From a virus, in IMG/VR virus record IMGVR_UViG_3300030104_003872, positions 11,291 to 75,290 of that record: a stretch of DNA of 64,000 nucleotides. One strand, 5' to 3'. The notes under the pieces are model-generated. The model did no database searches, was not told the origin of the DNA, and saw nothing but the letters and a program-made list of their open reading frames with translations. This document shows, in pieces, positions 18,524 to 35,294 of the stretch. The translations under genes and the position numbers were made by a program. The number at the start of each line of letters is the position of its first letter. The stretch's first letter is position 1.

Positions 18524-18649
18524 GTGCTAGTGTGCGACTACTGTCAAGAAACGTCTATCTCCGCTCCTTATATGACTCATGACATTTACTTAAAGACATT
18601 GGGACTATGCCCCGTATGTGGGAAAAACGGAAGTGTAAGAAATGTCTGA
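18524..18649 (+). CDS. small Zn-ribbon protein (41 aa, not in ORF track)
   Basis: GTG start; CDYC...CPVC; overlaps the terL start. Confidence 0.5.
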   Translation: MLVCDYCQETSISAPYMTHDIYLKTLGLCPVCGKNGSVRNV

Positions 18650-20144
18650 TATACTAAGAGGATTTAATTTAGAGCGTTCAAGAACAGATTTTAAGCATTT
18701 TTATGAATGGGTTGGTTATGTTTGGGGCGACCACATAGGCGAATGGGATAAATTGTATCGTGATAGGCAAGAAGCCAATGTTCACCGTGTTTGTATCATT
18801 GCTCCGCGTGACCACAGTAAGTCAACAACCTTAAGAATGGTAATGTTGCATCAATGCCTATTCAATACATGGCGAGACAAGCCTTTTACTATATGGTTGT
18901 TCTCTGCGTCTAAAGAATTGGCCGCTAACAGGCTCGAAGAAATACGAGGCGATATGATGCGTCATAGAGAACTTAGAAAGTTTATTGATATGCGAAGGGG
19001 TGGAAAACTTAACTTAAGATTCACAAATGGGGCATGGATTAAGGCTACCGGTATAGGTTCTGCTATTCGTGGTGAACATCCGGCTTGTATTGCTATGGAT
19101 GACGTACTCGATGATACAGGAGACATTACCCCCGAATCCACTAGGCATTGGTTTAGAAAAAAGATAACACCGATGCTTTCTCCCGGAACTTGGATGTATT
19201 GTGTCGGCACACCAATGGGAATGACTGATTTATACCACACCGAAATGCTAGAGAACCCTGCTTGGAAAACATGGCTCGGTTCTGCTTTCCCCAATTGGGA
19301 TGAATGGAAGTCTGACCCCGATGGTGTGGATTTAGAATGCCTATGGCCGGAACATCGGTCACTAGACTTCTTGATGGAACAAAAACAGGCTATGGGGGAT
19401 TTAGCATTCGTACAAGAATATCTTTGTAAGGTTGTGGATGAAGATGCTCAAGTTTTTACTAGGTACGATACGCGAGCACACTTAGAATCAACCGATATAA
19501 TGATGACAGGTAAAGAATTAGATGGAAAATACGCCATAGGCTTTGACCCTGCACATGGATTGGGAAGAGACTATTCTGTAATGGTTGTTGTTAGGCAAGA
19601 TAAGGATGGTGACCTTCATGTTGTTGATTTATGGAGACGTAATGATTTTCCCCCTGCGAAGCAGGTCGATGAGATTTTGTCTATGTGTAAAAAATATGAT
19701 AATCCGGCTTTTGCTTGCGAAGATGCGGGATTCCAAAGGCTCTATGAACAATTATTGTTAGAAAGGGGGGCAATGGTGGACTTTAGACCTTCTAAGGTAA
19801 GTAATAAGACACTAAAACAGGCACTATTGAATAGGTTGCGTGTTTGGTTTGAACAACAGAGGATTCACTTTCCATTTGGGGATGATAAAACTAGAAGAAA
19901 CATGAACATCATCTTAGAAGAATTAGACCACCATGTATGGAAGCAAGGCGAGATTATGGACGTTGGGAGACACAACGATACAGTAATGGCTCTTGCACAC
20001 GCAGTTGACCAGTTTTATTCGTGGGATAGGGGAGCACCTGTTGCTACCGGAAAGATTGAATCAAGTGGTTGGCTTCGACCGGATGGTGAATCTAAAGCAC
20101 CAAGATATAGCAGACCGCAGACAGGACGCTACCGCATACTTTAG
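18642..20144 (+). CDS. terL: terminase large subunit
   Basis: APRDHSKST Walker A, IAMDD Walker B, VGTP, QEY, nuclease GFDPA and HNDTVMALA. Confidence 0.95.
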   Translation: MSDILRGFNLERSRTDFKHFYEWVGYVWGDHIGEWDKLYRDRQEANVHRVCIIAPRDHSKSTTLRMVMLHQCLFNTWRDKPFTIWLFSASKELAANRLEEIRGDMMRHRELRKFIDMRRGGKLNLRFTNGAWIKATGIGSAIRGEHPACIAMDDVLDDTGDITPESTRHWFRKKITPMLSPGTWMYCVGTPMGMTDLYHTEMLENPAWKTWLGSAFPNWDEWKSDPDGVDLECLWPEHRSLDFLMEQKQAMGDLAFVQEYLCKVVDEDAQVFTRYDTRAHLESTDIMMTGKELDGKYAIGFDPAHGLGRDYSVMVVVRQDKDGDLHVVDLWRRNDFPPAKQVDEILSMCKKYDNPAFACEDAGFQRLYEQLLLERGAMVDFRPSKVSNKTLKQALLNRLRVWFEQQRIHFPFGDDKTRRNMNIILEELDHHVWKQGEIMDVGRHNDTVMALAHAVDQFYSWDRGAPVATGKIESSGWLRPDGESKAPRYSRPQTGRYRIL

Positions 20145-20263: not shown

Positions 20264-20586
20264 CAAACAATGATGCGTCCATAGAGCATATAGACTTATC
20301 TTTATAATGTCACTCCGAAAAAAATTAGAGAAAACTCTCGTAGGCACTAGGCGGAGATATATGGGCTAAATGCGTGATTTATGGCCTTCTATTATATACT
20401 AAGGCCGTATTTCACCATTTGCTGATATCGGATATTGGTGTTGTCCTTCGGGGCTTCGGACGAAAGCATCTGAACATAACAGGCTAGAATTAGCCTTCCG
20501 AATGCTTTGCCGGACACAAGATGGAAGGCGAATGGAATAAACAAACCAATCGGGCAAATAATCAACATCTGAAAGGTGAAGAAGCA

Positions 20587-21024
20587 ATGGCTAAGGCTAA
20601 GGCTAAGGCACTATATCAGATGGATGCGGAAGAAGCGATTGCTTCGTTCAATAGTACCCGTGCTGACAACAGTAAGGGATTGGGCAAAGCAATAGTGCAT
20701 AAGCCCCGAATGCGTAAGGCATCCGGCAGTCATGTTATGATTGTTGATTTGTCTAAACTGCCTAAGGGAAGCACGGTTGAACACCATCTAGGCTTGGCAA
20801 CAAGTAAGGTGAATGGGAAACCTGCTAAATATGCTTGCGTGTGTCTAACACACAATAGAAGCGTACTATGCACAACACGCCATCAGGCAACCTTCGGGGC
20901 AGTCTTTACTGCCCTTAAGGACGCTAGGACACCGAAGCAACTGATTCAGTCTAAGGGATTTACCCTAACTGATGGAATCGGTTGGTGTGATGGTTGTGTG
21001 AAGGCTTCATTAGCATCTGTCTGA
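20587..21024 (+). CDS. C/H-W family protein, copy 1 (putative pre-early Zn-binding protein)
   Basis: AAAGGTGA RBS then ATG 20587; ACVCLTH...TTRHQA...WCDGC; TATA ATTATATACT at 20391. Confidence 0.75.
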   Translation: MAKAKAKALYQMDAEEAIASFNSTRADNSKGLGKAIVHKPRMRKASGSHVMIVDLSKLPKGSTVEHHLGLATSKVNGKPAKYACVCLTHNRSVLCTTRHQATFGAVFTALKDARTPKQLIQSKGFTLTDGIGWCDGCVKASLASV

Positions 21025-21208
21025 AATGTGTCTTGCCACTATTAGGTGAAGTGGGCTTCCGTAATATGCTAGATATGTATGCGTCAATGAACAGTCAATC
21101 AGACTAACCAAACGATACCCAAGATTAGCACCTGTACAGGATGGATTTCAATGGCTATATCCCGCCGTTAAATCCTGTATAGTTTGAAGCCCCTTCCCAC
21201 ACGAAACC

Positions 21209-21361
21209 ATGATTTTGAAAAGGTATTTTATTGAATGGCGTGATGGAACAATAACCGAAATTAGCATTGATGAATTGAAGCGATTAGATGAATCAGGATT
21301 CCCGAAATCCATGCTTAATTTCATGGAATATCGGGCGTTTAGGAAGTGGTTGAAGGATTAG
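21209..21361 (+). CDS. hypothetical protein (50 aa, not in ORF track)
   Basis: MILKRYFIEWRDGTITEISIDELKRL...WLKD*; ends at the terminator hairpin; all Glu codons are GAA. Confidence 0.45.
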   Translation: MILKRYFIEWRDGTITEISIDELKRLDESGFPKSMLNFMEYRAFRKWLKD

Positions 21362-21410
21362 GCCGAAAGGCCACCTTCTTCCCTTTTTTTTGTGTTTTTT
21401 CAGATTTTTT
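21360..21410 (+). terminator. hairpin plus oligo-T terminator
   Basis: GGCC-GAAA-GGCC followed by three T-tracts (T8, T6, T6). Confidence 0.75.
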
Positions 21411-21448
21411 GAATCTACCGCATAAAAGATGGTTAAAGCCTTCGGTCC

Positions 21449-21545
21449 GCCCCTGTGAGAGAACAAAGGTCCGGAGAAAAAAGGTCAGGAGAAAAAGGTC
21501 TGGAGAAAAAGGTCACGCTGACAAAGGTCAGCCCCTGTGAGAGAA
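21449..21545 (+). repeat. iteron-like array: five AAAGGTC between 15-bp direct repeats
   Basis: AAAGGTC at 21465, 21480, 21494, 21508 and 21523; GCCCCTGTGAGAGAA at 21449 and 21531. Confidence 0.85.
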
Positions 21546-21600
21546 AACACGAGACGCCACCCATGATGACGCCTCGCTTACGTTAGTCCTCTGTCTCGAT

Positions 21601-21789
21601 TCAATTCATCTCAACAAGTGTCTGAATTAAGCATTGCTCCAGTTGTTGCGGGGTCATCTCTGCGTTTATGCCGAGGTCTATTGGTGTTCTCACTAGAGTT
21701 GTTATTACACCTTCCTGACGCCCGTCGTCTCCAACGACTGCGTGTTGCACGATTTTCGCGGTCACTTCTCCTATCTTTATTTTTCTCAT
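21601..21789 (-). CDS. hypothetical early protein
   Basis: AGGAGG RBS; TATA at 21838-47. Confidence 0.6.
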   Translation of the reverse strand: MRKIKIGEVTAKIVQHAVVGDDGRQEGVITTLVRTPIDLGINAEMTPQQLEQCLIQTLVEMN

Positions 21790-22047
21790 TTCATTTCCTC
21801 CTATGGGCTTTCCGCCCTACCTCCTCATGGAAGCCATAGTATATATACTTTGTGTATTTACGACCTCCACCTGAGAACTCTTTCTCGGCTCGGGGTGAGG
21901 CCCCCAAAAAGTAGTGTCGGGGAGAGAGAGGCTCGGGGAGAGGCCCTAAAAGACGCTCTCTCGCCCGGTCCGCCCCCGAGTAGGCGTTTGAGTGCGAGTC
22001 GTGATGCCAGACCGCCCCTCCGAGATGTCGTGGCTGAGTCGTACGTT

Positions 22048-22075
22048 TCTCCGGAGACCGCAATGTTTATAACCC
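22048..22075 (+). promoter_or_regulatory. early promoter: TCTC-CG-GAGA palindrome, 8-nt spacer, TTTATAA
   Basis: Same geometry as ten other early promoters. Confidence 0.7.
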
Positions 22076-22112
22076 CCTACCCCTACAGCGAGGTAGGCCA
22101 AGAGGCCGGGAG

Positions 22113-22460
22113 GTGAAAAATCTGGAAACTGAGAATTACTGGGAGAACTGCGAGAGAAAGACAGGAGCGGCGCTCGGAAAGTTGGGAGTCAAGACCGCCA
22201 AGAGTATTGGCGTAAAAGGAGCATGGACTCTAAAATACCGAGGCAAGGCAAAAATACTCGTTGGTTGCATGAGGAGAGTTGAATCCGAGTGGGCTGACAA
22301 GAGTATTCTGAACGAGAAAAAGGACAGAGTTGCTGAGCACGTTACAGTCTGTGAGCACGGAGTGGCAGTTGGAGCATCCACGAGAAAGGTTGCGATAGAG
22401 CTGGCTAAGAAATCCGAGCACTGGTGCGAGAAGTGTGCCGCGAGAACCGCCGTCCTTTGA
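22113..22460 (+). CDS. C/H-W family protein, copy 2
   Basis: GAWTLK.R.KA...VGC and VCEHG...GASTRKVAIELAK..EHWCEKC; start uncertain (GTG 22113 or CTG 22122). Confidence 0.75.
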   Translation: MKNLETENYWENCERKTGAALGKLGVKTAKSIGVKGAWTLKYRGKAKILVGCMRRVESEWADKSILNEKKDRVAEHVTVCEHGVAVGASTRKVAIELAKKSEHWCEKCAARTAVL

Positions 22461-22970
22461 GACGCGACGTAAATCCAATGACCCCCGAAAGGGGCGAGGA
22501 TGTACTCTCTGGGGTCACGACTCTCTAGTATTGAGGCTCGACCCTATTTGCACAAAGGTCGGGGGGTCACGACTCCGCCCCTTCTCGACCCTAAACGCAC
22601 AAAGGTCAGAAGCCTCCGGGTCCGCCCCAGAGAGAGAAGGCTCGATTCTCACTCATCTTAACCCCTAACCCGAGAACTCGAGCGTTTCTCCGTGTGCGGG
22701 CGGGCGAGCGAGTACTCAAATGTATGACATAAAAGGACCCTGAGCCGACGGGTCACGCCCCACGACTCACTGCTCATCACGACACGCATCTCAGGAGAGG
22801 AGCACGTTTTTTTAGTGGGAGCACAGGTCACCAGAGCCCCCCTACTCTACACGAGCGGACCCTAGAAGGCTTGAGCCCCTCAGGAATCTCGTGGGTGATG
22901 AGCTCCGGCAGGTATTTCTCCCACCAGAGCCTTTACGTCATCTCGAATAACTATCTCGGGGATAGAATAC

Positions 22971-23378
22971 TCAGACGCTCGCATCCTTGATGCTCTGTCT
23001 TGATTTCTCACACCAGATGTGAGCCAGTTTGCATAGCTCGATTGCTTTCTTTCTCGATGATGCTCCCATCACTGACCCATAGTCTGTGACCGCAACATGA
23101 GTTGGTGCAACCATCTCGCCATTTACGAGAATGGTCATGCCTTTGGTCGCTTCGGTAACTTGCTCATCCGCGTTCTCCACGAAAATGCAACCGACCCGAC
23201 ATCCAGCCTTCCTTCTCATCTTCAAAGTCCATGCTCCGGCTCTTCCGATGGTTCTCGCAGTCTTGGCTCCGTCCTTGCCGAGATGTGCTCCAGTTGAAAC
23301 TGTTGCTCCATCCCAATACATGGTCGGGGTTTTCTCTGCTTTACTGCTCTTCTTAGTGCTCTTACTAGTTTTGCTCAT
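22971..23378 (-). CDS. C/H-W family protein, copy 3
   Basis: GAWTLKMRRKAGCRVGC and GASSRKKAIELCK..HIWCEKS; clearly paralogous to 22113. Confidence 0.8.
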   Translation of the reverse strand: MSKTSKSTKKSSKAEKTPTMYWDGATVSTGAHLGKDGAKTARTIGRAGAWTLKMRRKAGCRVGCIFVENADEQVTEATKGMTILVNGEMVAPTHVAVTDYGSVMGASSRKKAIELCKLAHIWCEKSRQSIKDASV

Positions 23379-23480
23379 AAAGTTCTCCTCCTTGTCTCCA
23401 ATACGTGTCTCCGAGTCACGGTAAGGTTCTCATTCAATGTCATTCTCATCGTCCGCCCTACATGACCAGATAGAAGTTAT

Positions 23481-23608
23481 AGGATATAAAGTTTTCGGAC
23501 TCTTGAGTTAGACCGCCCTCACCGTGAGAGTAGTGGAGAAGTCGTAATGTTTTCACTCGAGTTGTCGATGCCTACGTAAAAGAGAACAGGGAGGCAATTC
23601 TCCGCCCC
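23481..23608. promoter_or_regulatory. composite intergenic module 1
   Basis: Minus-strand TATA 23481-90, ACTCTTGAGT 23499, ACTCGAGTTGTCGATG 23555, AAAAG 23578, TCCGCCCC 23601. Confidence 0.8.
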
Positions 23609-23612
23609 TGTC

Positions 23613-24041
23613 TCAATCTCTTCTAGTTTGACCATATAGCCGAGATTCAAATGCTTGCTCGGCTTGTTTCTCTAGTCTCTGTACTTCTGCGTGCTCGTCA
23701 ATTTTCTCTAGTACCTCTGCCACATCTTTCTCGGCCTGTCTCTTATTGTATATCTCCCAAACTTTGTCGGTTACGTTTCTCTTAACCATTTCTCCGAAGT
23801 GTCTCCATTGTCCCTCGTTTATGATATCTCTAGTCTTGTCATCAGTCAATGACCCAAGACCCATGTGTGATAATTTCTCCATTAGAGAATCTATTACGAC
23901 CGGACTGTCATGGAGTTTATCGTACTCTATTGAGTATATTTTGTCTATCTCATTTATTGTGAGTACGTCATCGGTATTTCTCCGGAGGTCTAATCTCCAA
24001 CCTCTGCTGAAATAGGTCCATTTTATCTCAGAGTATGACAC
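23613..24041 (-). CDS. hypothetical early protein
   Basis: Lies between modules 1 and 2; GTG start next to the upstream stop. Confidence 0.6.
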   Translation of the reverse strand: MSYSEIKWTYFSRGWRLDLRRNTDDVLTINEIDKIYSIEYDKLHDSPVVIDSLMEKLSHMGLGSLTDDKTRDIINEGQWRHFGEMVKRNVTDKVWEIYNKRQAEKDVAEVLEKIDEHAEVQRLEKQAEQAFESRLYGQTRRD

Positions 24042-24188
24042 CTATCTCCACCAACAGTCGAAATGTTCAGGCTCAATCGTTTCCTTCTCGGACTTGGTGG
24101 CTCCTTTCTTAACGAGAACCACTCGCCCCTTAAAGAGTTTATTAGCCAACTCTTTTGTTATCTCATATTCATTACTTCTCAATTTCAT
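24042..24188 (-). CDS. hypothetical protein (48 aa, not in ORF track)
   Basis: AAAGGTGA RBS; MKLRSNEYEITKELANK...CWWR*; first gene after the module 2 promoter. Confidence 0.5.
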   Translation of the reverse strand: MKLRSNEYEITKELANKLFKGRVVLVKKGATKSEKETIEPEHFDCWWR

Positions 24189-24242
24189 TTCTCTATTTCA
24201 CCTTTCCTCGGCCTTCCGGCCTACTCTGAGGATGGAAGTCAT

Positions 24243-24346
24243 AGGATATAAACATTTCTGACTCTTGAGTTGTCGCGTGTAGCGTAATAATTTACTCGAG
24301 TTGTCGATGACTACACAAAAGGTCTTGCTCTTGACGACTCCGCCCC
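24243..24346. promoter_or_regulatory. composite intergenic module 2
   Basis: TATA 24243-52, ACTCTTGAGT 24261, ACTCGAGTTGTCGATG 24294, AAAAG 24317, TCCGCCCC 24339. Confidence 0.8.
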
Positions 24347-24382
24347 AACTCTACCGCGTGAGGCAAAGGGGGTATCTCGCAA

Positions 24383-25195
24383 TCACTCGTAATGCGGAGA
24401 ATCCGCGTACTCGTAAAGACCAGTTATAGGTTCGACCTTATAGAAGTGCTCTTTTGCACAGACCCATCCGGTCGGTGTATATCCCTCGGGATAAGTCGAA
24501 CTAACTGTCTCGTCACCGCCTAGAGATTCCCAATCCGGCTCCCATTGTGCTCCATTCGCTCGCCTGTCTTTTATCTCTTGTAACCATTGTATTCTCTTAA
24601 GTTCTCTGAGAACGGCATAGGCTTCTCGGAATGTATTAAGTGGTCCGAGGAAAGCATCGTGGCTCACAATAGAGCGATACCATCCGCCCTCCTCTGGTCC
24701 GCCGTATGCTCTTACTTTCTCGTACCTGCTCACATATATTTGGTCGCCGTGATTCTTCTCCCAATAACCTTCCTCGGGGAAGAAATCGTACTCACCTTCT
24801 TTGAGCAGATATAGTTTCTCCATACCTGAGCCAGCGTAATGCCATCTCTGATAGTCCCACTGCTCTTTGCGGTACTCGTAAAGTGTAACGAGCCAGTCGC
24901 CGTTGATACTCTGATATTTATCTCCTATTCGCTCAGGAAGACCATTTTCGTCTTGTTCTCTGCAATATTGCTCAAACGCCTGTTGCTCAGTCTGATGTCG
25001 AATTCTCTTCTGCTTGTGCTCACGCCTTGACTCGCTATGCTTTAGGTCATAGACCCAAGCACGAGTGGATAGCAATGTTCTCGCTAAACCGGTCAGTTCT
25101 GCATTCTCTTCAAAACTTCTCTTTTCGTCGTATAATTCTTTCTCTTTCTCGTAATCTGTCATATTTTTCTCACCTCCCTTATGGTCTGACTCCAT
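24383..25195 (-). CDS. hypothetical early protein (YGGPEEGGW motif)
   Basis: Long ORF; GGAGGTGA precedes an internal Met (about 25162), which is the likely true start. Confidence 0.65.
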   Translation of the reverse strand: MESDHKGGEKNMTDYEKEKELYDEKRSFEENAELTGLARTLLSTRAWVYDLKHSESRREHKQKRIRHQTEQQAFEQYCREQDENGLPERIGDKYQSINGDWLVTLYEYRKEQWDYQRWHYAGSGMEKLYLLKEGEYDFFPEEGYWEKNHGDQIYVSRYEKVRAYGGPEEGGWYRSIVSHDAFLGPLNTFREAYAVLRELKRIQWLQEIKDRRANGAQWEPDWESLGGDETVSSTYPEGYTPTGWVCAKEHFYKVEPITGLYEYADSPHYE

Positions 25196-25213
25196 TTCAT
25201 TGTATTCTCTTGA

Positions 25214-25570
25214 TTATAACTCATTAACTGCATCTCTTAATTCGACTTCATTGGCTATTCGAGTTGCTTCTCGATGTGCCTTTAATCTCCGGATGTAACT
25301 CCTATCTTCTTTCTCTAATGTATCGAACTCTTCACCTGCGAATCTCGCATAGTTGGTCAATAATGCGTGGAGATTAATACGATGCACTCCGCAACTATAT
25401 CTCATTAGTTTTAACGAGTGCCTATCTCCCTTCATGGGAGATGATTGCATCTCTAATAGTTCGACCTGTAAGTCAAACTCTTTCATTTTCTCTAGTAACT
25501 CTTTCTGTAACTCAACTGCTCTAATCATAGAGTTTATGAGTTCCATTTCTTCATCCTCCGTTTCCGCCAT
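25214..25570 (-). CDS. hypothetical helical protein (leaderless)
   Basis: ATG about 20 nt downstream of the module 3 TATA. Confidence 0.65.
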   Translation of the reverse strand: MAETEDEEMELINSMIRAVELQKELLEKMKEFDLQVELLEMQSSPMKGDRHSLKLMRYSCGVHRINLHALLTNYARFAGEEFDTLEKEDRSYIRRLKAHREATRIANEVELRDAVNEL

Positions 25571-25589
25571 GTAGAGGTATAGGGGTTCT

Positions 25590-25693
25590 AGGTATTAAAC
25601 CTTTCTAACTCCTGAGTATCCTCAGAGAATGATAGATTTACTCGAGTTGTCGATGGGTTGGTAAAAGAGAATAGGATTGTGAATCTCCGCCCC
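25590..25693. promoter_or_regulatory. composite intergenic module 3
   Basis: TATA 25590-99, ACTCCTGAGT 25608, ACTCGAGTTGTCGATG 25640, AAAAG 25663, TCCGCCCC 25686. Confidence 0.8.
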
Positions 25694-25699
25694 ACACGA

Positions 25700-26176
25700 C
25701 TAGTAATTAAAATCGGTCAGGGGAAAGTCATTCTCTTCGACTATCCTTTCGTTGTTCTCAAAGAACTTCCTCACATGCTCAAGACCTATCAGATGGGCTC
25801 TACCGGACTTACTTCTATTGTCGATAACTGATGGGTCATCTGCAAACTGCTCGTTCAGTATGCTCAGATATAATCTCTTAGCCACATCATACTCTTGAGG
25901 TTTCCATAATAAGACCTCTTCTGTCTCGACATATCTTTGCTCAGTTCTAAATCGAGTGTTGATTCGCTCTAATTGCTCATCATCCATGATTTCTCTGCTT
26001 CTGAGCAGAATAAAACCATGCTCATGATGACCTAGTTCCTCGTCATAACTCTTATTCACAGACCATATTAAATCTCTTAATTCAGATTTCTCTTCACCAG
26101 TTCTGCTCATCCATGAACGAGCAAGTGATTGTGGTGTCGTGTGTCGCCACTCTGTACGTGACCTGACCAAAATCAT
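25700..26176 (-). CDS. hypothetical early protein
   Basis: ORF in the minus-strand operon; true start may lie further upstream, near GGAGGTGA at about 26225. Confidence 0.55.
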   Translation of the reverse strand: MILVRSRTEWRHTTPQSLARSWMSRTGEEKSELRDLIWSVNKSYDEELGHHEHGFILLRSREIMDDEQLERINTRFRTEQRYVETEEVLLWKPQEYDVAKRLYLSILNEQFADDPSVIDNRSKSGRAHLIGLEHVRKFFENNERIVEENDFPLTDFNY

Positions 26177-26256
26177 CCTGTCCTCTGATATTTTATACTC
26201 GTATTCGTCTATCTCTATTCACCTCCTTTAGACTCCAAATCTCCCATCTATGAATC

Positions 26257-26595
26257 TCATTGCAGAGAACTTTCCTTCTCTTGCTTTTGCATCTCGTACA
26301 TCATCTTTCTCCCTTCTATACGAGCCTTCCACATAGAGATACCAAAACTCATTGCTTGTTGTCTCTTTTCCATATCCTCATCAAACGGGTCCATACCCAT
26401 TCTCGCGGGTAAGACCATAGTGGCGTCGCATAAGTCGCAACATCTCGAATCGAAATCTTTTGGGTCAGCAAGGAGTGGGTAGGGATTATTACCCATGTAT
26501 TCTCCGGTCTTGAATAATAACTCGTTGGTATGAGGGTGTCTTGGTCCCTTAATCTCTTTCTTACAGAGACAACACTTAAGATTACTCTTCCTCAT
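26257..26595 (-). CDS. Zn-finger protein
   Basis: CCLC...GNNPYP...RCCDLCD..V.PAR. Confidence 0.65.
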   Translation of the reverse strand: MRKSNLKCCLCKKEIKGPRHPHTNELLFKTGEYMGNNPYPLLADPKDFDSRCCDLCDATMVLPARMGMDPFDEDMEKRQQAMSFGISMWKARIEGRKMMYEMQKQEKESSLQ

Positions 26596-26779
26596 CGTTG
26601 ATTGCTCCTTCTAATAGTCGTCGAATGACACTAGGGTCAATAGCAGACTCTTTGATAAGAGCCATAAACTCTTCGGCCGTTTGACCTGTTGCTACCGTTT
26701 CGCCTGTCTCTTTGCTTACAACTCTGAATAAAGGAGCATCCGCACCCGCATTCTCTGTCTCTACATCAATTACGGTCAT
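26582..26779 (-). CDS. hypothetical protein
   Basis: AGGAGTG RBS; coupled to the next gene. Confidence 0.55.
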   Translation of the reverse strand: MTVIDVETENAGADAPLFRVVSKETGETVATGQTAEEFMALIKESAIDPSVIRRLLEGAINDEEE

Positions 26780-26939
26780 ACTTATGCACTCCTAGCCTCA
26801 TACTGTTTTTTGGTCAGTCCATACCTTCTCAGGTAATATTTGTCGTTCATCTCTTCAATCATATTTCTCATCTTGTTGCTCATCTTCTATTCGCTCCTGT
26901 TTCATGTGGGCTCGCCACGCTAATATCTCTATATGTATT

Positions 26940-27104
26940 TTACTCATCTACTTTCCTCCTTATCCTTAAATACTCATGGCAGGGCTCGCAAAGAGTTGCA
27001 CTCTCACCTGCCCGACCTGAATGGAAATCAGTCGGCATATTACCGACAACCCACCATGACTCGGCATGGAATAAGTCGTCACCACATTGGTCGCAATAGG
27101 TCAT
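26940..27104 (-). CDS. small Zn-ribbon protein (not in ORF track)
   Basis: MTYCDQC...LCEPCHE; ATGA overlap with a small leaderless ORF at 27101-27232. Confidence 0.45.
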   Translation of the reverse strand: MTYCDQCGDDLFHAESWWVVGNMPTDFHSGRAGESATLCEPCHEYLRIRRKVDE

Positions 27105-27251
27105 TCTAAATCATACTCCTCATATACCCACTCTGGGGTTTCTAGTCGAAACTTGAATCTGGTCACCAAGAGTTTATTCCGTAGTCGGGAATACTTAACT
27201 CGGGTGATGTTTCCATCGTCGCCGTCCGCCATATCTACCAATTATCGTCTT

Positions 27252-27376
27252 AGGATATAAAGGTTTTGGACTCTTGAGTTATGGTGTATTTTAACTCGAG
27301 TTGTAGGTTATAGTAGTAAAAGGTTCGGTAGAGCACTACTCCGCCCCAACTCAAGAGTTGGAAAGGTTTATATTCT
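27252..27376. promoter_or_regulatory. composite intergenic module 4 (divergent promoters)
   Basis: Minus TATA 27252-61 with ACTCTTGAGT 27270; ACTCGAGTTGT 27294; AAAAG 27318; TCCGCCCC 27340; ACTCAAGAGT 27349 with plus TATA 27367. Confidence 0.8.
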
Positions 27377-27425
27377 AGTTAGATGATTCCCTCATGTAGC
27401 GGAAGCACAGGAGACATCAGATAAA

Positions 27426-28127
27426 ATGAGTGAAAATGAAAACAGAGTAATTGAACAAGAGACAGAGCGTGAAGCAGGTAAGAGTATAACCCTGACCTTC
27501 ACACCTATCGGAGCAATCATAGATTCCGAGAAAGAAAGCAAAGTACAAGAGCAAGATGAAAATGCAGACCTGTTCTTTATGAGAAGTATCAACACGACCT
27601 TCGGGTTCAAGATGTTGAGAAACTCATGGGATAGTGAGCACGACATCAAAGCAGGAGCAACTGAGACTAATACCAAGAGTACAAATGGACTAAGAATCGG
27701 AGATACAACCGTGACGAGTTTCATAACATCAGAGTTGGAGTGGTTCAAAGAGGCACTAATGCCTCTGCTTATCGACCAAAGTGATGTGGAGATAATCCAG
27801 ACCACTAAGGAAGAGATAGTAATAGTTGAGCCACTAGGCAGATACGAGCACTTCGGTTGGGACGAGACACCAGAGTGGGCTGATGAAAGAGTAACCCTCG
27901 AATACATCGACCTTCGTAATGGTAAGGCCTCTATTCTCGTACAAGGCGAGACAGGTTCTGACCTTCAAGGGGATGAGGTGAACGAGGCAGTTAAGGGCTA
28001 CCACGATATGCTTATGAGTACCATCAGAAGTATGACCTGCACAGACGAGAATGAATATAGCAGAGATTGTAAGAGTTTGCTTAAAGTGGAGTCTCATAGA
28101 GTTTGCGACACATCCTTCTTGAATTGA
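27426..28127 (+). CDS. hypothetical acidic protein
   Basis: Follows the module 4 plus-strand promoter; AGGAG RBS. Confidence 0.7.
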   Translation: MSENENRVIEQETEREAGKSITLTFTPIGAIIDSEKESKVQEQDENADLFFMRSINTTFGFKMLRNSWDSEHDIKAGATETNTKSTNGLRIGDTTVTSFITSELEWFKEALMPLLIDQSDVEIIQTTKEEIVIVEPLGRYEHFGWDETPEWADERVTLEYIDLRNGKASILVQGETGSDLQGDEVNEAVKGYHDMLMSTIRSMTCTDENEYSRDCKSLLKVESHRVCDTSFLN

Positions 28128-28245
28128 GTTCTTTGGGGGAGAGAACTTCGTAAGCCTCGGCGTGGGTAAATCTCACGCTGAGGTGAAACATCTTATGCTC
28201 TCAGTAGGAGGAACGATAGGATGACAGACCTGAAACTTCGAGGGG

Positions 28246-29445
28246 GTGATGAGAATGTCAGATGAAAGAGGATTAATACCTTACTCTAACAAAGAAGAGA
28301 TGATTCTCGCTATGCAAGATTTGTCGGATGAAATGCTTAAGGTAGGTCACGATAATGTGGAAGAGTTCCTAGCACTCGTAAAACAAGAGATGTGGGATAG
28401 AGAACACGCTATGGTGGTCACATACAATGAAGAGTTCAAAGAAAAGTGGGCTCATGTATTCGACTTATTTAACGAAGGTTGGTCTATATTAAGAGAACTA
28501 TACCAAATATGCGAGGACTATGATGGAGATAATAATTTTATCACAGAGAAGAATGAGCATCCGAATTATCCTCATTGCGAGTTAGAAAAGGCTTGGGTCG
28601 TAAGATACGAGTCATTTTTAGCAAGAGCAAAAGATATGCCTAGTCGTGGTTATACACATGAGGGACCATATGGAACTCTAGTATTCAGAGAAGAATATCT
28701 AAAAGAGTTGGATTTAGAGTCTTATTGGGCGACTACATATTCAACGGAGATAGCAAGGAGATTGGAGCCTAAAGAGAAGGACTTAAAGTATGGTCTTACT
28801 TTTGCTCATTATCCTACAGACCCTTTCAAAGAGGAAGAGGAATACATCGAAGATTGGAGCAGATACAAATATGTTAGAGATACTAAGATAGAGGCCTTTG
28901 ATAAAGTCGTATATTTCTTGAGAAATGTTATGGTTAAGTCGGAGACAAAGGATATAAGACCTTCACAAAACGACGATTGGAAAACCAATGAGCTCAAACA
29001 CTATAATCTCGAAACACATCAGTTAGAGAGACCTTTAGAGTGGAAGATAATAGAGGATGAGCAGATAGTGGGTGCTATTTACGGTAGAGGTAGGAGCGAT
29101 AATAAATATGCGACTTGTTTCGACTGTGATGAAAATGGTCGAAATAGATTAGCCGTGAGAACATATTACGAGCGTGGGTATCAAGAGATGCCAGGAGCTC
29201 CTGTTCATGCTACATGCGAGTACTTTACTTGTATGAGATGTGGAAGTGAGCGTAAAGGTGGAGAACATGGAGATTTCCCTGTTGGTGGAGTTGACTTAAT
29301 AGGTCAGCCACTCTTTGCAGGTATGAGCACAGAAGAAGTATGTCGTCAATGCTCATGTTATACTACCAAACAGTACGGTGGTAGCGGAGAACGAGGAAGC
29401 GATAGGGAGTGTTGGGCTTGCTATGGAGAACCCGGTCATTACTAG
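28246..29445 (+). CDS. hypothetical protein with C-terminal CxxC pairs
   Basis: CFDC, CMRC, CRQC and CWAC; GGGGGTGA RBS. Confidence 0.7.
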   Translation: MMRMSDERGLIPYSNKEEMILAMQDLSDEMLKVGHDNVEEFLALVKQEMWDREHAMVVTYNEEFKEKWAHVFDLFNEGWSILRELYQICEDYDGDNNFITEKNEHPNYPHCELEKAWVVRYESFLARAKDMPSRGYTHEGPYGTLVFREEYLKELDLESYWATTYSTEIARRLEPKEKDLKYGLTFAHYPTDPFKEEEEYIEDWSRYKYVRDTKIEAFDKVVYFLRNVMVKSETKDIRPSQNDDWKTNELKHYNLETHQLERPLEWKIIEDEQIVGAIYGRGRSDNKYATCFDCDENGRNRLAVRTYYERGYQEMPGAPVHATCEYFTCMRCGSERKGGEHGDFPVGGVDLIGQPLFAGMSTEEVCRQCSCYTTKQYGGSGERGSDRECWACYGEPGHY

Positions 29446-29519
29446 ACAGGTCTGGTGGTAGAGATACCGCCATTCCTCTCACTCTAAGATAAAAGAAAAG
29501 AGCGCTCCTCTCTCCGCCC

Positions 29520-29820
29520 CTTGAGAGAAGAAGGTGGTGGGTCTAGATTGCAGTATGCCTACCCAGCAATGTCTCCCCGACCCACCGAAAGGAGTATTAG
29601 GTGGAGGCTTATCCGACTTGTTACCGCCTGTTTTAGACTCACTTCCTCGTTGCATTTCTGCCTCTTTCGAGATAAGGGTAGTGTGCGGCTCGGTTACGGT
29701 TTGGTCTACCACCTGTTTATGTAGACTCGCCCCCTTTTTGTATGCTCCGTCATGTACCCGTTCTCATGGTGGACGGAGCCACACCATGTGGTCGTTTCGT
29801 GCGGAAGAACGCTCGAATTG
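29520..29820. ncRNA. candidate multi-hairpin structured RNA or long 3' UTR
   Basis: Stems GGTGGGTC/GACCCACC, GTCTAC/GTAGAC and GCTCCGTC/GACGGAGC, CTC-GAAA-GAG (minus); U-tract at the minus-strand 3' end. Confidence 0.4.
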
Positions 29821-29821
29821 T

Positions 29822-30301
29822 CTAAGCAGTCGCTTTAACTTCTGTCTCTGTGACTTCTGTCTCAGCCTCTGCCGTTGCTTTAGCCTCTTCCTCGGCTTTC
29901 GCCTTAGCCTCGGCTAATTTCTCCACTATCTTTTGAGCCTTGTTGCTCCATGTGGCCGGATGTCTCGCTAGTTCGAGTGCCTTTTTCCTTGAAGTTGCTC
30001 CGTGCTTCTGGAGAATCTTCATTTTTAGGTCTTTTGCTCCCTTTTCGTGAGTTCCTGTGATAACGACTGTATGCTTGTCTGGTCTGTTACAGATAGGCTC
30101 GTCAGATGCCTCGGTTAAGTAAATTCTCACTTGCATACCTCCAATCTCCTGACAACCCTTCTCACGCCACAATCCTCTGATGCCGTAAAGGTCAACATTA
30201 GAGTGTCCGTGTGTTTCTGTATCTCCCTTAGACCACTTTGGGATAGGTTTCTCATCTTCTGTGGTCTTTGATTCTGATTTAGTCTCTTTCTTTGTGCTCA
30301 T
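29822..30301 (-). CDS. C/H-W family protein, copy 4 (Cys-degenerate)
   Basis: HTVVI...HGATSRKKALELARHPATWSNKA; GGAGGTGA RBS. Confidence 0.7.
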   Translation of the reverse strand: MSTKKETKSESKTTEDEKPIPKWSKGDTETHGHSNVDLYGIRGLWREKGCQEIGGMQVRIYLTEASDEPICNRPDKHTVVITGTHEKGAKDLKMKILQKHGATSRKKALELARHPATWSNKAQKIVEKLAEAKAKAEEEAKATAEAETEVTETEVKATA

Positions 30302-30365
30302 AACATTTCACCTCCTCGGGGTTTCGCAGTCCTCCCGCTTCGCATATCTACAACTACATTTATCT

Positions 30366-30533
30366 AGTATATATAATGTTCTAACTCTTGAGTTGTGCTT
30401 GAGTTGTAGCCTACTGCCTTACTACTAGAGTAGATACTACGCGTGTAGTGAGTGAGTGCTCTTATTATTGGTAAAAGATTCGGTAGAGGTATTCTCCCGC
30501 CCGTAACTCGTGAGATGGAAACATTTATGTGCC
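30366..30533. promoter_or_regulatory. composite intergenic module 5 (divergent promoters)
   Basis: Minus TATA 30366-75 with ACTCTTGAGT 30384; AAAAG 30473 and TCCCGCCC 30495; ACTCGTGAGA 30506 with TTTATGT 30524. Confidence 0.75.
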
Positions 30534-30594
30534 GTCAAGATATATTAGTAGATATGTACGGTACGACGATAAGTTTTACACAGGAGGCTGAATA

Positions 30595-31023
30595 ATGAAA
30601 TGCGAGGCAATGGGGTGCGACAGCGAGGCTACGCTTATGTGTCACCAGAGTTACTTATGCGAGGGTTGTGGTGTTGAGATGGCGAAGGCGACAGGCCACG
30701 ATACTCAACCTATTATACTGTCGTCTGTACTCAAAACTATGAGTGAAGAAGAAAAGGAGTTTCTTGACCCACTTACTGTTCTTGTCGATGACGAAGAGCA
30801 TGACCACCGCACATTTGATTTACAAGATGTCGGTACAATTGACCACATAGTACCTACTAATGGTTTGACCATATTCCATGAGCCTATTGTCATGGCGAGG
30901 TGCGTTCATTGTGAGGCATACGCTATCGGTCATATCAACAAGGTAGGAGGTTGGTTCGCGAGACACCAACACTACCACACGCACGCAGAGGCAAATGATG
31001 ACGACTTTGCCATGCCGTCGTGA
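30595..31023 (+). CDS. Zn-finger protein
   Basis: CEAMGC...C...LCEGC and RCVHC...WF..H..YH; AGGAGG RBS. Confidence 0.65.
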   Translation: MKCEAMGCDSEATLMCHQSYLCEGCGVEMAKATGHDTQPIILSSVLKTMSEEEKEFLDPLTVLVDDEEHDHRTFDLQDVGTIDHIVPTNGLTIFHEPIVMARCVHCEAYAIGHINKVGGWFARHQHYHTHAEANDDDFAMPS

Positions 31024-31043
31024 GTTCAAAAACTTTATATCCT
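31016..31043 (+). promoter_or_regulatory. early promoter (degenerate palindrome CGTCGTGAGT, 8 nt, TTTATATCCT)
   Basis: Same spacing as the other early promoters. Confidence 0.65.
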
Positions 31044-31086
31044 AGAATTAATTATTGGTAGTATAGCGGAAGCGGAGGAAAGTATA

Positions 31087-31653
31087 ATGAGCAAATCAGC
31101 CGAAGAAGAGTTAATAGAAGAGTGGAAAGAACCAGAGCAACCAATGGATTATCTGATTCGACAACAAGAGAATGCTATCACGCAGACCAAGTATCTATTC
31201 TACAAACTCTATGATAAGAGTGACAAAGGATGGAGTGACGAGCAGAAAGAAGAGTGGGGTAATCATATCGACGAAAACGGTTTCCGCAAGTCGGAGTTAT
31301 TCCAAGAAGTACCTGCTCAACACAGATATGTGGTCGCTATACCAGAGACAGGCGAGTGGAAATCATTTAAGACTCGTTCCGAGGTAACACAAGACCGGCA
31401 AGGTGGAGCAATGTACCCCTATGCTAAGTGGTCTAAGCACGAGTCAGCCCGAATGGAGGCCTATGGTGCTATGAAACTCATGAGTTTAGCGTGTTCTAAG
31501 GTCTTACCTGAGAACTGTGATGACGAGCAAGCGTATTTACGACCTTCCGACATTGAAAGAGTTGCACTTATCCTATTAGAGATTGACGCAGAGCGAAGGG
31601 AATTATCAGAGTATTACGATGAGTTAGCCCAAGAATTAGAGGTTTCAGCATGA
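31087..31653 (+). CDS. hypothetical protein
   Basis: GGAGG RBS; ATGA overlap with the helicase gene. Confidence 0.65.
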   Translation: MSKSAEEELIEEWKEPEQPMDYLIRQQENAITQTKYLFYKLYDKSDKGWSDEQKEEWGNHIDENGFRKSELFQEVPAQHRYVVAIPETGEWKSFKTRSEVTQDRQGGAMYPYAKWSKHESARMEAYGAMKLMSLACSKVLPENCDDEQAYLRPSDIERVALILLEIDAERRELSEYYDELAQELEVSA

Positions 31654-33281: not shown

Positions 33282-33464
33282 GAAAATACATAGATGCGAC
33301 TTAGAGATTATTGGTTTTGATTATGACCAAAAGAAATGGGAGGTCACAGAACACCTCCGATGTAAAGAGTGCGGTGCTAGAGCAACAAAGATAGTAAAAG
33401 AGGTATATGTTCTTGACTCTTACTCAAAAAATATTAAGACATAGCCGGTAGCGACGTCTACTTG

Positions 33465-33492
33465 ACTCAAGAGTCAGCAATGTTTATATCCT
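33465..33492 (+). promoter_or_regulatory. early promoter (TGACTCAAGAGTCA palindrome, TTTATATCCT)
   Basis: Palindrome core 33465-74, 8-nt spacer; drives leaderless ardC. Confidence 0.8.
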
Positions 33493-33511
33493 AGTTTGAT
33501 ATTTTGGTAGT

Positions 33512-34744: not shown

Positions 34745-34814
34745 GTAAAAAGAAATTGAGTAAAGATGGGTTAGAGATATTTGAGTTCAAACTACCATCA
34801 AAGGAGGAAGAAGA

Positions 34815-34958
34815 ATGAGTTATAAGATATTGAGATTTAGATTTGAAGGAAAAACAAGAGTAATAAAAAGAGGATTGACACTCGAAGAAGCCCAAGAGCA
34901 TTGCCGTGACCCAAAAACAAGTGGAGATGGTTGGTTCGACGGTTATACGGAGGAATAA
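34815..34958 (+). CDS. small conserved-looking phage protein (not in ORF track)
   Basis: MSYKILRF...RGLTLEEAQEHCRDPKTS..GWFDGY; AGGAGG RBS. Confidence 0.6.
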   Translation: MSYKILRFRFEGKTRVIKRGLTLEEAQEHCRDPKTSGDGWFDGYTEE

Positions 34959-34960
34959 AT

Positions 34961-35116
34961 ATGGCTATGAGCAGAAAACATTATAGAGTAATAGCAGAGG
35001 CAATAAGAACAAACGACGATAAGAGGAAAATGATACTAGAACTCAGTATGTTTTTCAAGGAGGATAATCCTAATTTTAACTTGAGTAAGTTTTTGGAGGC
35101 GTGTCATTTTGAGTGA
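34961..35116 (+). CDS. small phage protein
   Basis: MSRKHYRVIA...DNPNFNLSKFLEAC; GGAGG RBS. Confidence 0.6.
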   Translation: MAMSRKHYRVIAEAIRTNDDKRKMILELSMFFKEDNPNFNLSKFLEACHFE

Positions 35117-35294
35117 ATACAAGAAGTGCAACGAGACACAACACGAATGGACTCGACAAGACATGGATGATAGCGAGTTCGATAAATTATCATTGACCTA
35201 CCATTGTTTGCATTGCGGAGCAACGTGCGAGATGGAGGGTGATGTAAGGACAGATGATGGTAGGTTCATAGAGTGGGTGCTGACCGATGAGTAA
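35109..35294 (+). CDS. small Zn-ribbon protein
   Basis: C....HEW...CLHCG; coupled overlaps. Confidence 0.5.
   Translation: MSEYKKCNETQHEWTRQDMDDSEFDKLSLTYHCLHCGATCEMEGDVRTDDGRFIEWVLTDE

What the first reader, a model, noticed from the sequence alone, without database searches (positions are those of the whole stretch)
20357..21456. A 1.1-kb GAG/CTC desert holding one complete transcription unit
Seen: zero GAG or CTC in 1100 bp, where roughly 30 are expected from composition. Every Glu codon is GAA and the RBS is AAAGGTGA rather than GGAGG. The segment starts just past terL and an AGAGAAAACTCT inverted repeat (about 20327-38). It contains TATA, a structured leader, the first C/H-W family gene and a strong terminator, and ends exactly at an iteron array. 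Known analogy: T5 first-step-transfer DNA, which is depleted of restriction targets and ends at a repeat-rich stop signal. Inference: this is the genome end or terminal repeat that enters first and must remain unmodified or unbound so host RNA polymerase can read it, or so it escapes a GAG-directed defence.
Basis: partly seen in the sequence, partly recalled or inferred. Interest (0 to 1): 0.92.

Follow-up and report, generated by a model that had tools for sequence, protein, structure and literature searches.

The report
Mark-free first gene cassette of a virus
A marine, probably archaeal, tailed virus keeps one complete 1.1-kb gene unit entirely free of the three-letter DNA word GAG/CTC, a word that seems to carry a protective chemical mark everywhere else and is packed densely into the next 16.5 kb, so this unit is probably the only ordinary, unmarked DNA the virus delivers into a cell.

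Summary
It is not chance, an assembly chimera or an import. About ten relatives (terL 80% identical or more) have a 1.0-1.46 kb GAG/CTC-free gap at the same place. Their DNA there is mostly unalignable and its GC ranges from 0.38 to 0.63. The gap spans one transcription unit: a conserved TATA box, a fast-evolving 145-aa Cys/His protein of unknown fold, a variable small gene and an oligo-T terminator. It ends at an iteron array. Next comes a 16.5-kb early zone with three times more GAG/CTC, evenly spaced and thinning with distance.

In this clade, otherwise purged restriction-type palindromes (AGCT, AGGCCT, AGTACT, AGCGCT, GATATC, GAATTC) survive only where GAG/CTC overlaps them. Sister clades lack this pattern, the desert, the rich zone, and a methyltransferase-like/GNAT-like gene pair.

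Best reading (about 0.5): GAG/CTC carries the virus's own protective DNA mark, and the desert is a first-read cassette kept unmarked. Whether it is the entering genome end could not be tested.

This scan noted similar mark-free first genes in other phage genomes (unchecked AI notes).

The parts
18642..20144 (+). Large terminase gene (terL). It is the last conserved gene before the desert.
   Evidence: PHROG 38 at E 7.8e-45 and Terminase_6C. It is 80-91% identical in the relatives that carry a desert.
20296..20356 (.). Conserved spacer block just left of the desert. It holds a TTTATAAT box, ACTCCGAAAAAAA, the AGAGAAAACTCT inverted repeat at 20327-20338, and the last GAG at 20354-20356.
   Evidence: The block is recognisable in L003, L004, L006, L007, L008 and L012. 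Its function is unknown. It is a candidate packaging or end signal, by inference only.
20357..21456 (.). The GAG/CTC-free segment ('desert'), 1100 bp.
   Evidence: Equivalent gaps of 1002-1463 bp lie right after terL in L003, L004, L006/G002, L007, L008 and L012/G003. More are seen in L051, L054, L055, L057-L061.
20387..20399 (+). Archaeal-type promoter (TTCTATTATATAC) of the desert unit. It lacks the operator box that the neighbouring early promoters carry.
   Evidence: A TTCTTTATAT-like box is conserved about 40-45 nt inside every relative's desert. Compare the zone promoters.
20587..21024 (+). Desert gene: a 145-aa basic protein with invariant R41, R43, C86, T88, H89, R98, W133, C134 and C137. 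It is an orphan family.
   Evidence: Alignments A1 and A2 show 32-49% identity among lineages, apart from one close relative at 84%. Only 11 cluster representatives match among 1.84 billion proteins. The AlphaFold model has pLDDT 84.7 and pTM 0.80, with no fold match. There is no hit in Pfam, PHROG, NCBIfam or PADLOC.
21209..21361 (+). Second small ORF (50 aa), a variable cargo of the cassette.
   Evidence: A similar ORF occurs only in L007. Other relatives carry unrelated small ORFs in this slot, all free of GAG/CTC.
21361..21411 (+). Terminator: the hairpin GGCCGAAAGGCC followed by runs of T8, T6 and T6.
   Evidence: Read directly from the sequence. T-rich ends are also seen at the right edge of the relatives' deserts.
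21444..21545 (+). Boundary array: five AAAGGTC iterons with a 14-15-bp period, flanked by 20-nt direct repeats GGTC(C/A)GCCCCTGTGAGAGAA. The first GAG is at 21457.
   Evidence: CAAAGGTC and GGTCCCGCCCCTGTG elements recur at the same boundary in relatives.
21457..37980 (.). GAG/CTC-rich early zone (56 per kb against 18 per kb elsewhere). It holds ArdC-like anti-restriction and SF2 helicase genes, many orphans, and nine ACTCNNGAGT-N8-TATA promoters.
   Evidence: Enrichment is seen in all three frames, on both strands and in non-coding DNA. Density falls with distance (rho -0.81). Spacing is even: CV 0.65 and a longest gap of 84 bp. The right edge is conserved in L033 and L034.
49370..50548 (+). 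ParB-like plus amino-methyltransferase-like protein (motif I DPFCGGS, motif IV SCPPY). It is the candidate writer of the GAG/CTC mark.
   Evidence: It is present in clade members G000, G002 and G009, and absent from the complete sister genomes G001, G006 and G007.
50539..51501 (+). GNAT-like protein of the LPG_synthase_C/DUF2156 type, overlapping the methyltransferase gene. It is a candidate second modification enzyme.
   Evidence: The Pfam hit has E 2e-5 and scores below the curated cut-off. It is clade-specific.
51851..52354 (+). Nucleoside 2-deoxyribosyltransferase-like protein, found in the clade but not in the sister genome G001.
   Evidence: Pfam PF05014 at E 1.8e-11. It is present in G002 and absent from G001.

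Best explanation
The virus marks its own DNA covalently at the word GAG/CTC, most likely on the base pair formed by the last G of GAG and the first C of CTC. The likely writer is the clade-specific methyltransferase-like enzyme, possibly helped by the adjacent GNAT-like and deoxyribosyltransferase-like proteins. The mark shields overlapping restriction sites.

The genome is zoned by mark density:
- The 16.5 kb that follow the iteron array are painted densely and evenly, with no unmarked stretch over 84 bp and a density that falls with distance. This looks like generic camouflage of the DNA that is exposed longest before viral counter-defences exist.
- The rest of the genome carries few marks.
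- One complete transcription unit (20357-21456: its own operator-less TATA promoter, a fast-evolving Zn-type protein, a swappable small gene and an oligo-T terminator) carries none.

That unit is therefore the only chemically ordinary DNA in the particle. I infer that it is the first unit read by the naive host's transcription machinery. I infer that it is kept mark-free because even one mark there is costly. The most likely cost is that a mark-dependent host nuclease could hit it before its product, a probable counter-defence or takeover protein, is made. A less likely cost is that marks hinder the very first round of transcription.

Shown: the desert, its conservation, its unit structure, the zoning, and the link between the word and site survival. 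Inferred: the chemistry, the writer, the order of entry, and the function of the protein.
For: 1. The desert is exact and extreme.

2. It recurs after terL in every relative with terL at least 80% identical and around every homologue of the desert protein, about ten lineages in all. The DNA there is mostly unalignable and GC runs from 0.38 to 0.63. The dinucleotide-based expectation summed over seven deserts is 162 against 0 observed.

3. The gap runs from about 35-45 nt upstream of a conserved TATA box to just past an oligo-T terminator. Its length follows gene content.

4. Evidence for a mark:
- All 12 AGCT in the genome are GAGCT or AGCTC, and both GCGC are GCGCTC.
- Across the clade, 63 of 65 AGCT/AGNNCT copies are covered in this way, against 12 of 47 in sister clades. 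The two exceptions lie inside a desert.
- Outside deserts, coverage is GATATC 6/6, GAATTC 4/4, AGGCCT 12/12, AGTACT 9/9 and AGCGCT 6/6.
- In the clade, 6-bp palindromes that contain the word have O/E 0.79 against 0.26 for all others. In sister clades the figures are 0.03 against 0.21.

5. Sister clades, including three complete genomes, lack the desert, the rich zone, the desert protein and the methyltransferase-like/GNAT-like pair.

6. The enrichment acts at the DNA level. It is seen in all frames, on both strands and in non-coding DNA, is evenly spaced and graded, and has sharp conserved edges.

7. The desert protein evolves fast (32-49% identity among lineages, where terL keeps 80-91%) and is an orphan with no known fold. 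This is typical of arms-race early genes.

8. Precedents in print. Motifs in the first-injected region decide sensitivity to restriction (PMC12455610; T5/BF23, PMC10644984). Short-word protective marks are known: Mom at SAS (PMC13219725) and dPreQ0 at GA/GGC (PMC7544227).
Against: - No chemical evidence of any modification exists. Everything is inferred from sequence statistics.
- The specificity of the methyltransferase-like protein is unknown. Carriers of its 41-43%-identical homologues show no GAG/CTC pattern.
- The physical genome ends and the order of entry are unknown. The assembly is circular and the source contig crosses the region.
- If marks blocked transcription strongly, the densely marked early zone and the late genes could not be expressed. 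The 'readability' version therefore needs a weak or context-dependent effect, yet zero tolerance suggests a one-hit cost.
- The one-hit (mark-dependent nuclease) version needs stepwise DNA entry, for which there is no evidence here.
- GATC is absent even in GAGATC/GATCTC contexts, so the mark does not protect every site.
Confidence: 0.5

Rival explanations
1. The gene is kept invisible to its own product. The desert protein, or another early protein, is a DNA binder that reads the triplet GAG/CTC and coats or regulates the word-rich early zone. Targets would include the ACTCAAGAGT operators and the GGAGAA iterons. Its own transcription unit avoids the word so that it is never bound.
For: The protein is small, basic and has a Cys/His/Cys/Cys signature. 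The word sits in the operator of nine early promoters and in the iterons next door, while the desert promoter lacks the operator. The protein, the desert and the rich zone co-occur. A similar reading was proposed for another genome in this scan (note e1-5961610, unchecked).
Against: Occlusion by a protein does not readily explain why restriction-type palindromes survive only when overlapped by the word across the whole genome, including late regions with sparse words. It also does not explain why the clade-specific methyltransferase-like gene tracks the pattern. Enrichment in all frames of coding DNA with even spacing fits coverage better than discrete binding sites. No DNA-binding fold was recognised.
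Confidence: 0.15
2. The reason is structural: DNA ends, packaging or replication. The segment would be a terminal repeat or the DNA next to the packaging or replication start, lying between terL and the iterons. Marks there would disturb terminase, end recombination or origin function. Transcription timing would be irrelevant.
For: The segment lies directly after terL and ends at an iteron array with conserved flanking elements. Density in the next zone falls with distance from this point, so a polar process starts here. Many relatives' contigs break in this neighbourhood.
Against: The DNA inside the desert is not conserved, so it holds no shared recognition site. Its length varies from 1.0 to 1.46 kb with gene content. 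Its edges coincide with a promoter and a terminator rather than with a fixed distance. Contig breaks fall at no consistent position and are expected at any hypervariable spot.
Confidence: 0.1
3. A host defence reads the unmodified word. This could be a very short-motif nuclease or a CRISPR PAM of GAG/CTC. The leading cassette avoids it, and the virus has no mark of its own.
For: Both orientations of an asymmetric 3-bp word are absent, as expected for recognition of double-stranded DNA. Motif-free leading regions that escape restriction are known (PMC12455610).
Against: The word is enriched threefold right next door and is common in the rest of the genome. That would be suicidal for a target motif. 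Sites overlapped by the word are kept, not lost, so the word protects rather than exposes.
Confidence: 0.07
4. Chance, an assembly chimera, or a recent import from a genome that avoids GAG.
For: None beyond the a priori possibility. The record is a metagenome assembly.
Against: About ten lineages from different samples show the same gap, with unalignable DNA and GC from 0.38 to 0.63. The segment shares the genome's purge of GATC, AGCT and other palindromes. An independent contig from the probable source run spans it.
Confidence: 0.01

Closest known systems
Motif-free leading (first-injected) regions that decide sensitivity to restriction: Murciavirus (T7-like; PMC12455610) and the terminal-repeat, first-step-transfer DNA of T5/BF23 (PMC10644984)
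   Same: A short, hypervariable, early-gene-bearing stretch lacks a DNA word that the rest of the genome carries. Its likely role is to allow early anti-defence genes to be expressed safely.
   Different: Here the missing word appears to be the virus's own protective mark, not a host restriction site. Host-type palindromes are purged genome-wide. The word is enriched and evenly spread in the next 16.5 kb. First entry is not shown. The promoters are of archaeal type.
Phage Mu Mom: post-replicative, tRNA-dependent GNAT hypermodification of adenine at the 3-nt word SAS, which includes GAG (PMC13219725)
   Same: It is a three-letter, very frequent modification word that protects against many unrelated restriction enzymes. 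A GNAT-like gene of an aminoacyl-tRNA-transferase type sits in the clade-specific gene cluster.
   Different: No homology to Mom was shown. Only GAG/CTC is involved, not GAC, CAG or CAC. The site contexts point to the G:C pair rather than the A. The candidate writer is a methyltransferase-like protein with an unusual CPPY motif. No mark-free cassette or density zoning is described for Mu, to my knowledge.
Motif-specific 7-deazaguanine (dPreQ0) in phage CAjan at GA and GGC (PMC7544227)
   Same: It is a phage-encoded, sequence-context-specific base modification that blocks restriction at overlapping sites.
   Different: None of the gene products submitted to family searches here matched a DpdA/TGT or preQ0-synthesis family. 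That covers most of the larger ORFs, not the whole genome. The word is different.
Magroviruses and haloarchaeal tailed viruses (PMC5434244; HVTV-1, HRTV-27)
   Same: It is a marine metagenomic tailed virus with family-B polymerase, clamp loader and archaeal-type promoters. The nearest cultured PolB and terL hits include haloarchaeal viruses.
   Different: Identity is only 21-25%. The genome is 75 kb rather than about 100 kb. The host assignment is inferred, not tested.

Membership tests
T5-type first-step-transfer DNA | It lies in a long direct terminal repeat at the genome end. | not testable with these tools
   Only Logan contigs were available. The source contig runs through 18600-23000 without a break, and no start, end or depth data exist. 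The assembly is circular with a 98-bp overlap inside a giant gene.
T5-type first-step-transfer DNA | Host restriction sites are absent from the segment but tolerated in the rest of the genome. | tested here: not met
   Strongly avoided palindromes have O/E 0.02 in the rest of the genome and 0.10-0.12 in the desert. The purge is genome-wide, and the desert is no cleaner.
T5-type first-step-transfer DNA | DNA entry occurs in two steps, with a stop signal at the end of the segment. | not testable with these tools
   An iteron array and conserved boxes sit at the right edge. Their function is unknown.
Leading-region motif avoidance (Autographiviridae type) | A DNA word is absent from a short, hypervariable early region but present elsewhere. 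| tested here: met
   There are 0 GAG/CTC in 1100 bp against 18 per kb and 56 per kb elsewhere. The region is hypervariable.
Leading-region motif avoidance (Autographiviridae type) | The word is the recognition site of a host restriction system. | tested here: not met
   The word is enriched next door, and overlap with it rescues otherwise purged sites. It therefore behaves as protection, not as a target.
Short-word protective DNA modification (Mom-like or DpdA-like in function) | Restriction sites that overlap the word are protected. | tested here: met
   This is an evolutionary proxy. In the clade 63/65 AGCT/AGNNCT copies are covered, against 12/47 in sister clades. GAGCTC occurs 27 times against 0, and CTCGAG 19 times against 2.
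Short-word protective DNA modification (Mom-like or DpdA-like in function) | A virus-encoded modifying enzyme is present. | tested here: inconclusive
   A clade-specific methyltransferase-like protein (PF01555, type II MTase models) and a GNAT-like neighbour are present. Their specificity and chemistry are unknown. Among the gene products submitted to family searches, none matched a Mom or DpdA family.
Short-word protective DNA modification (Mom-like or DpdA-like in function) | A modified base is chemically present in virion DNA. | not testable with these tools
   No native-DNA signal data or mass spectrometry is available.
Self-invisible regulator gene (a gene that lacks the word its product reads) | The product binds the word. 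| not tested
   The protein has a Cys/His signature and is basic, but no DNA-binding fold was recognised.

The most novel reading that the evidence does not exclude
A clade of marine archaeal-type tailed viruses writes a previously undescribed covalent mark on the 3-bp word GAG/CTC. The writer would be a CPPY-type methyltransferase-like enzyme, with a tRNA-transferase-like GNAT and a deoxyribosyltransferase-like partner. The clade has evolved a genome zoned by mark density as an entry programme. A mark-free immediate-early cassette comes first. An evenly and densely marked leading region with a distance gradient follows, whose promoters carry a palindromic operator built from two copies of the word. 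That operator could let the virus tell parental (marked) DNA from newly replicated (unmarked) DNA. The rest of the genome is sparsely marked.
Probability: 0.35. Interest if true: 0.9.

Novelty: new variant of a known kind. Interest (0 to 1): 0.86.

Why it matters
If this reading is right, sequence alone reveals three things about an uncultured virus:
- that its DNA is chemically marked;
- at which word it is marked;
- which gene it needs first.

It would extend the 'leading region' logic of T5 and T7 from avoiding host sites to managing the virus's own mark. It would also show that selection can tune the density of a mark along a genome: zero, dense and even, or sparse.

It gives testable candidates. 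The methyltransferase-like, GNAT-like and deoxyribosyltransferase-like trio may carry out a new 3-bp-specific DNA modification. The orphan Zn-type protein of new fold may be a counter-defence or takeover factor.

This scan has flagged similar mark-free first genes with other words in unrelated phages. The pattern may therefore be a general and so far undescribed strategy. This case has the strongest internal control, because sister clades lack every element.

Tried and rejected
- Genome ends. The look-up of sequencing runs gave only assembled Logan contigs from marine metagenomes. Laying them showed one source contig crossing the region and small fragments in other runs, with no starts, ends or depth. 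Nothing about termini can be said.
More homologues were reached through the search for related loci instead.
- Rfam found nothing in 20000-22500. The 5' leader folds no better than shuffles (z -1.3).
- The sigma-70 and terminator scan was uninformative, because the promoters are of archaeal type.
- No tRNA genes were found.
- Paralogy of the desert protein with early-zone ORFs 22113-22460, 22971-23378 and 29822-30301 is rejected.
- Function of the desert protein. There is no family hit, no solved-structure fold match (Foldseek E above 1, best VIA Z 3.9) and no Atlas lead.
- A virion RNA polymerase as reader of the marked zone is rejected. The giant ORF (2977 aa when the genome is circularised) is G/S/T-rich with no polymerase motifs.
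- Relaxed restriction-site avoidance inside the desert is not significant (p 0.03-0.08 in two genomes, none in the third).
- Carriers of distant methyltransferase homologues (41-43% identity) show no GAG/CTC pattern, so they give no help on specificity. The phage records with homologues were uninformative.
- The GGWCC excess seen early on is just collagen-like Gly-Pro repeats in tail fibres.
- No close cultured relative was found by DNA search.
Full report
**What the window is.** The window is bases 11291-75290 of a 75,290-bp IMG/VR virus record. The record's ends overlap by 98 bp inside a giant gene, so the assembly is circular and 75,191 bp long. Gene content is that of a tailed virus.
- Structural genes, on the minus strand, include a portal, collagen-like tail fibres and a 2977-aa G/S/T-rich protein.
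- An exonuclease and terL follow on the plus strand.
- A replication block holds family-B polymerase, clamp loader, PD-(D/E)XK and ERCC4 nucleases.
- There is no close cultured relative. The best terL hits are 24-26% identical, to Bacteroides and Paenibacillus phages, with haloarchaeal viruses also on the list. The best PolB hits are 21-24% identical and are haloarchaeal tailed viruses.
- Early promoters have an A-rich element plus TTTATAT, some about 25 nt from the start codon (leaderless). This is the archaeal pattern.
- The holding runs are marine metagenomes. A marine archaeal host is therefore likely, but this is inferred.

**The observation.** No GAG or CTC occurs from 20357 to 21456 (1100 bp), and the next-longest gap is 468 bp.
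- Expected counts are 29.9 (composition), 23.3 (dinucleotides) or about 18-20 (local density).
- Synonymous reshuffling of the 145-aa gene never gives zero.
- Two details fail. The leader is not significantly structured. The protein has no detectable paralogues in this genome.

**The surroundings.** The desert is the sharp left edge of a larger pattern.
- From 21457 to about 37980 the word occurs 56 times per kb, against 18 per kb in the rest of the genome.
- The excess is specific to this trinucleotide.
- It is present in all three codon frames, on both strands and in non-coding DNA. Other synonymous codon choices hardly change.
- Density falls with distance from the desert (rho -0.81; in relative G003, -0.62).
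- Sites are spaced more evenly than random. The CV is 0.65 against 0.97, and the longest gap is 84 bp against 101-169 expected. G003, G002 and L051 are similar.
- The right edge is abrupt and conserved in L033 and L034.
- The zone shares the genome's total purge of GATC and near-total purge of AGCT and GCGC, so it has the same host history.

**Comparative test.**
- Relatives found through terL split cleanly. Those at least 80% identical (L003, L004, L006/G002, L007, L008, L012/G003) have a 1002-1463-bp GAG/CTC-free gap right after terL, followed by a rich zone. Those at 54-67% identity have neither.
- The deserts are almost unalignable with one another, and their GC runs from 0.38 to 0.61.
- Dinucleotide-based expectations sum to 162 sites over seven deserts, and none is observed.
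- Each desert holds a homologue of the 145-aa protein. Identity among lineages is 32-49%, with invariant Arg, Cys, Thr-His and Trp-Cys-x-x-Cys positions. Each desert also holds different small ORFs.
- Every further homologue in the metagenome collection also lies in such a gap, with GC up to 0.63.
- The family has only 11 cluster representatives among 1.84 billion proteins.
- The gap always starts about 35-45 nt upstream of a conserved TTCTTTATAT-type box. It ends after a T-rich terminator at conserved CAAAGGTC/GGTCCCGCCCCTGTG elements.
- This rules out chance, a chimera or a recent import. It shows strong selection, or a directed process, acting on a whole transcription unit.

**What the word is.** An earlier scan note (e1-6067112) suggested that AGCT survives only next to GAG. 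I tested and extended this.
- All 12 AGCT in the genome are GAGCT or AGCTC, and both GCGC are GCGCTC.
- All further AGCT in the clade members examined are also in that context. Sister clades have no AGCT at all.
- Outside deserts, every clade copy is overlapped so that the last G of GAG (first C of CTC) lies in the site: AGGCCT 12/12, AGTACT 9/9, AGCGCT 6/6, GATATC 6/6 and GAATTC 4/4. Sister-clade rates are 9-26%.
- The only two uncovered AGNNCT copies in the clade lie inside a desert.
- Six-base palindromes that contain the word are kept in the clade (O/E 0.79 against 0.26 for all others). They are purged in sister clades (0.03 against 0.21).
- A single mark on GAG/CTC explains all of this. 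The alternative needs several host enzymes that share the same flank exception.
- Sites that start with G point to the G:C pair rather than the A, but the A is not excluded.

**Candidate writers.** Genes present in the clade and absent from complete sister genomes include the desert protein, the rich zone, a ParB-like plus amino-methyltransferase-like protein with an invariant (S/T)CPPY motif, an overlapping GNAT-like (LPG_synthase_C-type) gene and a deoxyribosyltransferase-like gene. Their specificity is unknown. Distant homologues' carriers show no pattern. Mom of phage Mu shows that a GNAT can hypermodify double-stranded DNA at a 3-nt word using charged tRNA (PMC13219725).

**Mechanism.**
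- Dense, even coverage of the zone fits generic camouflage. With a mark every 12-18 bp, most recognition sites of any restriction system would be touched.
- The gradient and sharp edges fit a polar process that starts at the desert side.
- In print, the first-injected region decides sensitivity to restriction and is hypervariable and rich in anti-defence genes (PMC12455610; T5/BF23, PMC10644984).
- Against this background, the adjacent unit with zero marks, its own operator-less promoter and a fast-evolving orphan protein is best read as the immediate-early cassette that must be ordinary DNA.
- Complete absence suggests a one-hit cost such as cleavage by a mark-dependent nuclease, rather than a small slowing of transcription. 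Late genes and the dense zone are evidently expressed despite carrying marks.
- This step, and first entry itself, are inferences.

**Rivals.** The rivals are:
- a word-reading protein kept blind to its own gene;
- a structural role at a genome end or origin;
- a host defence aimed at the unmodified word.

Each explains part of the data but not the site-survival pattern together with the clade-specific enzyme genes.

**Novelty.**
- Word-specific phage DNA marks and motif-free leading regions are both known.
- I found no description of a cassette free of the virus's own mark, combined with graded, evenly spaced enrichment next door.
- Earlier notes of this scan report similar word-free first genes in other phages (e1-3409407, e1-6013280, e1-6049348). 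They are unchecked AI notes and are not counted as evidence.
- This case is stronger because the palindrome test is clearly positive and sister clades serve as a natural control.

Noticed in passing
window 21446-29519 (also G003, G002, L004, L007): Twelve of the 14 TCCGCCC copies in the window lie here, all on the plus strand whatever the gene direction. Many form part of an AAAAG-N17-18-TCCGCCCC element. The first copy ends the desert. Co-oriented copies also occur in relatives. The function is unknown.
   Followed up: partly
window 23499-35954: Nine ACTCNNGAGT boxes occur in the zone (mostly ACTCAAGAGT, 0.9 expected). Most are placed 8 nt upstream of a TTTATAT box, and the one at 31476 is not. 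This is an early regulon of archaeal-type promoters, several of them leaderless. The operator is built from one CTC and one GAG.
   Followed up: partly
whole genome (G000): Palindromes are purged to an extreme degree. GATC occurs 0 times (279 expected), GCGC 2 (147) and AGCT 12 (279), and 30 of the 64 six-base palindromes are absent. Most relatives and sister-clade loci checked also lack GATC (L007 has 2), and the pooled sister-clade set holds 46 against 671 expected.
   Followed up: partly
window 49370-50548, 50539-51501 and neighbours: The methyltransferase-like and GNAT-like proteins both end in VEWL. The methyltransferase motif IV is (S/T)CPPY in all homologues examined, not the usual D/N/SPPY.
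   Followed up: partly
window 2335-11490: Tail-fibre genes carry long collagen-like Gly-X-Y repeats. These explain a local GC rise and a 5.6 per kb excess of GGWCC. This is ordinary.
   Followed up: yes
window 57741-64000 and genome 1-about 2800: A 2977-aa G/S/T-rich ORF spans the contig junction. It has no family hit and no polymerase motifs, and is probably a structural or adhesin-like protein.
   Followed up: partly
G003 (L012/L031-L032) against G000: Clade members with 80% identical terL differ by 10 points of GC (0.52 against 0.42) yet keep the desert and the rich zone.
   Followed up: no
L055 7173-7448: In one relative a second 275-bp word-free stretch follows the boundary elements right after the main desert. 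It may be a second mark-free mini-unit.
   Followed up: no
window 20424 and 21133; G003 8666 and 9060: This genome's only uncovered GATATC and its only TGTACA, and G003's only uncovered AGGCCT copies, lie inside the deserts. This hints at slightly relaxed site avoidance there, but it is not significant.
   Followed up: yes
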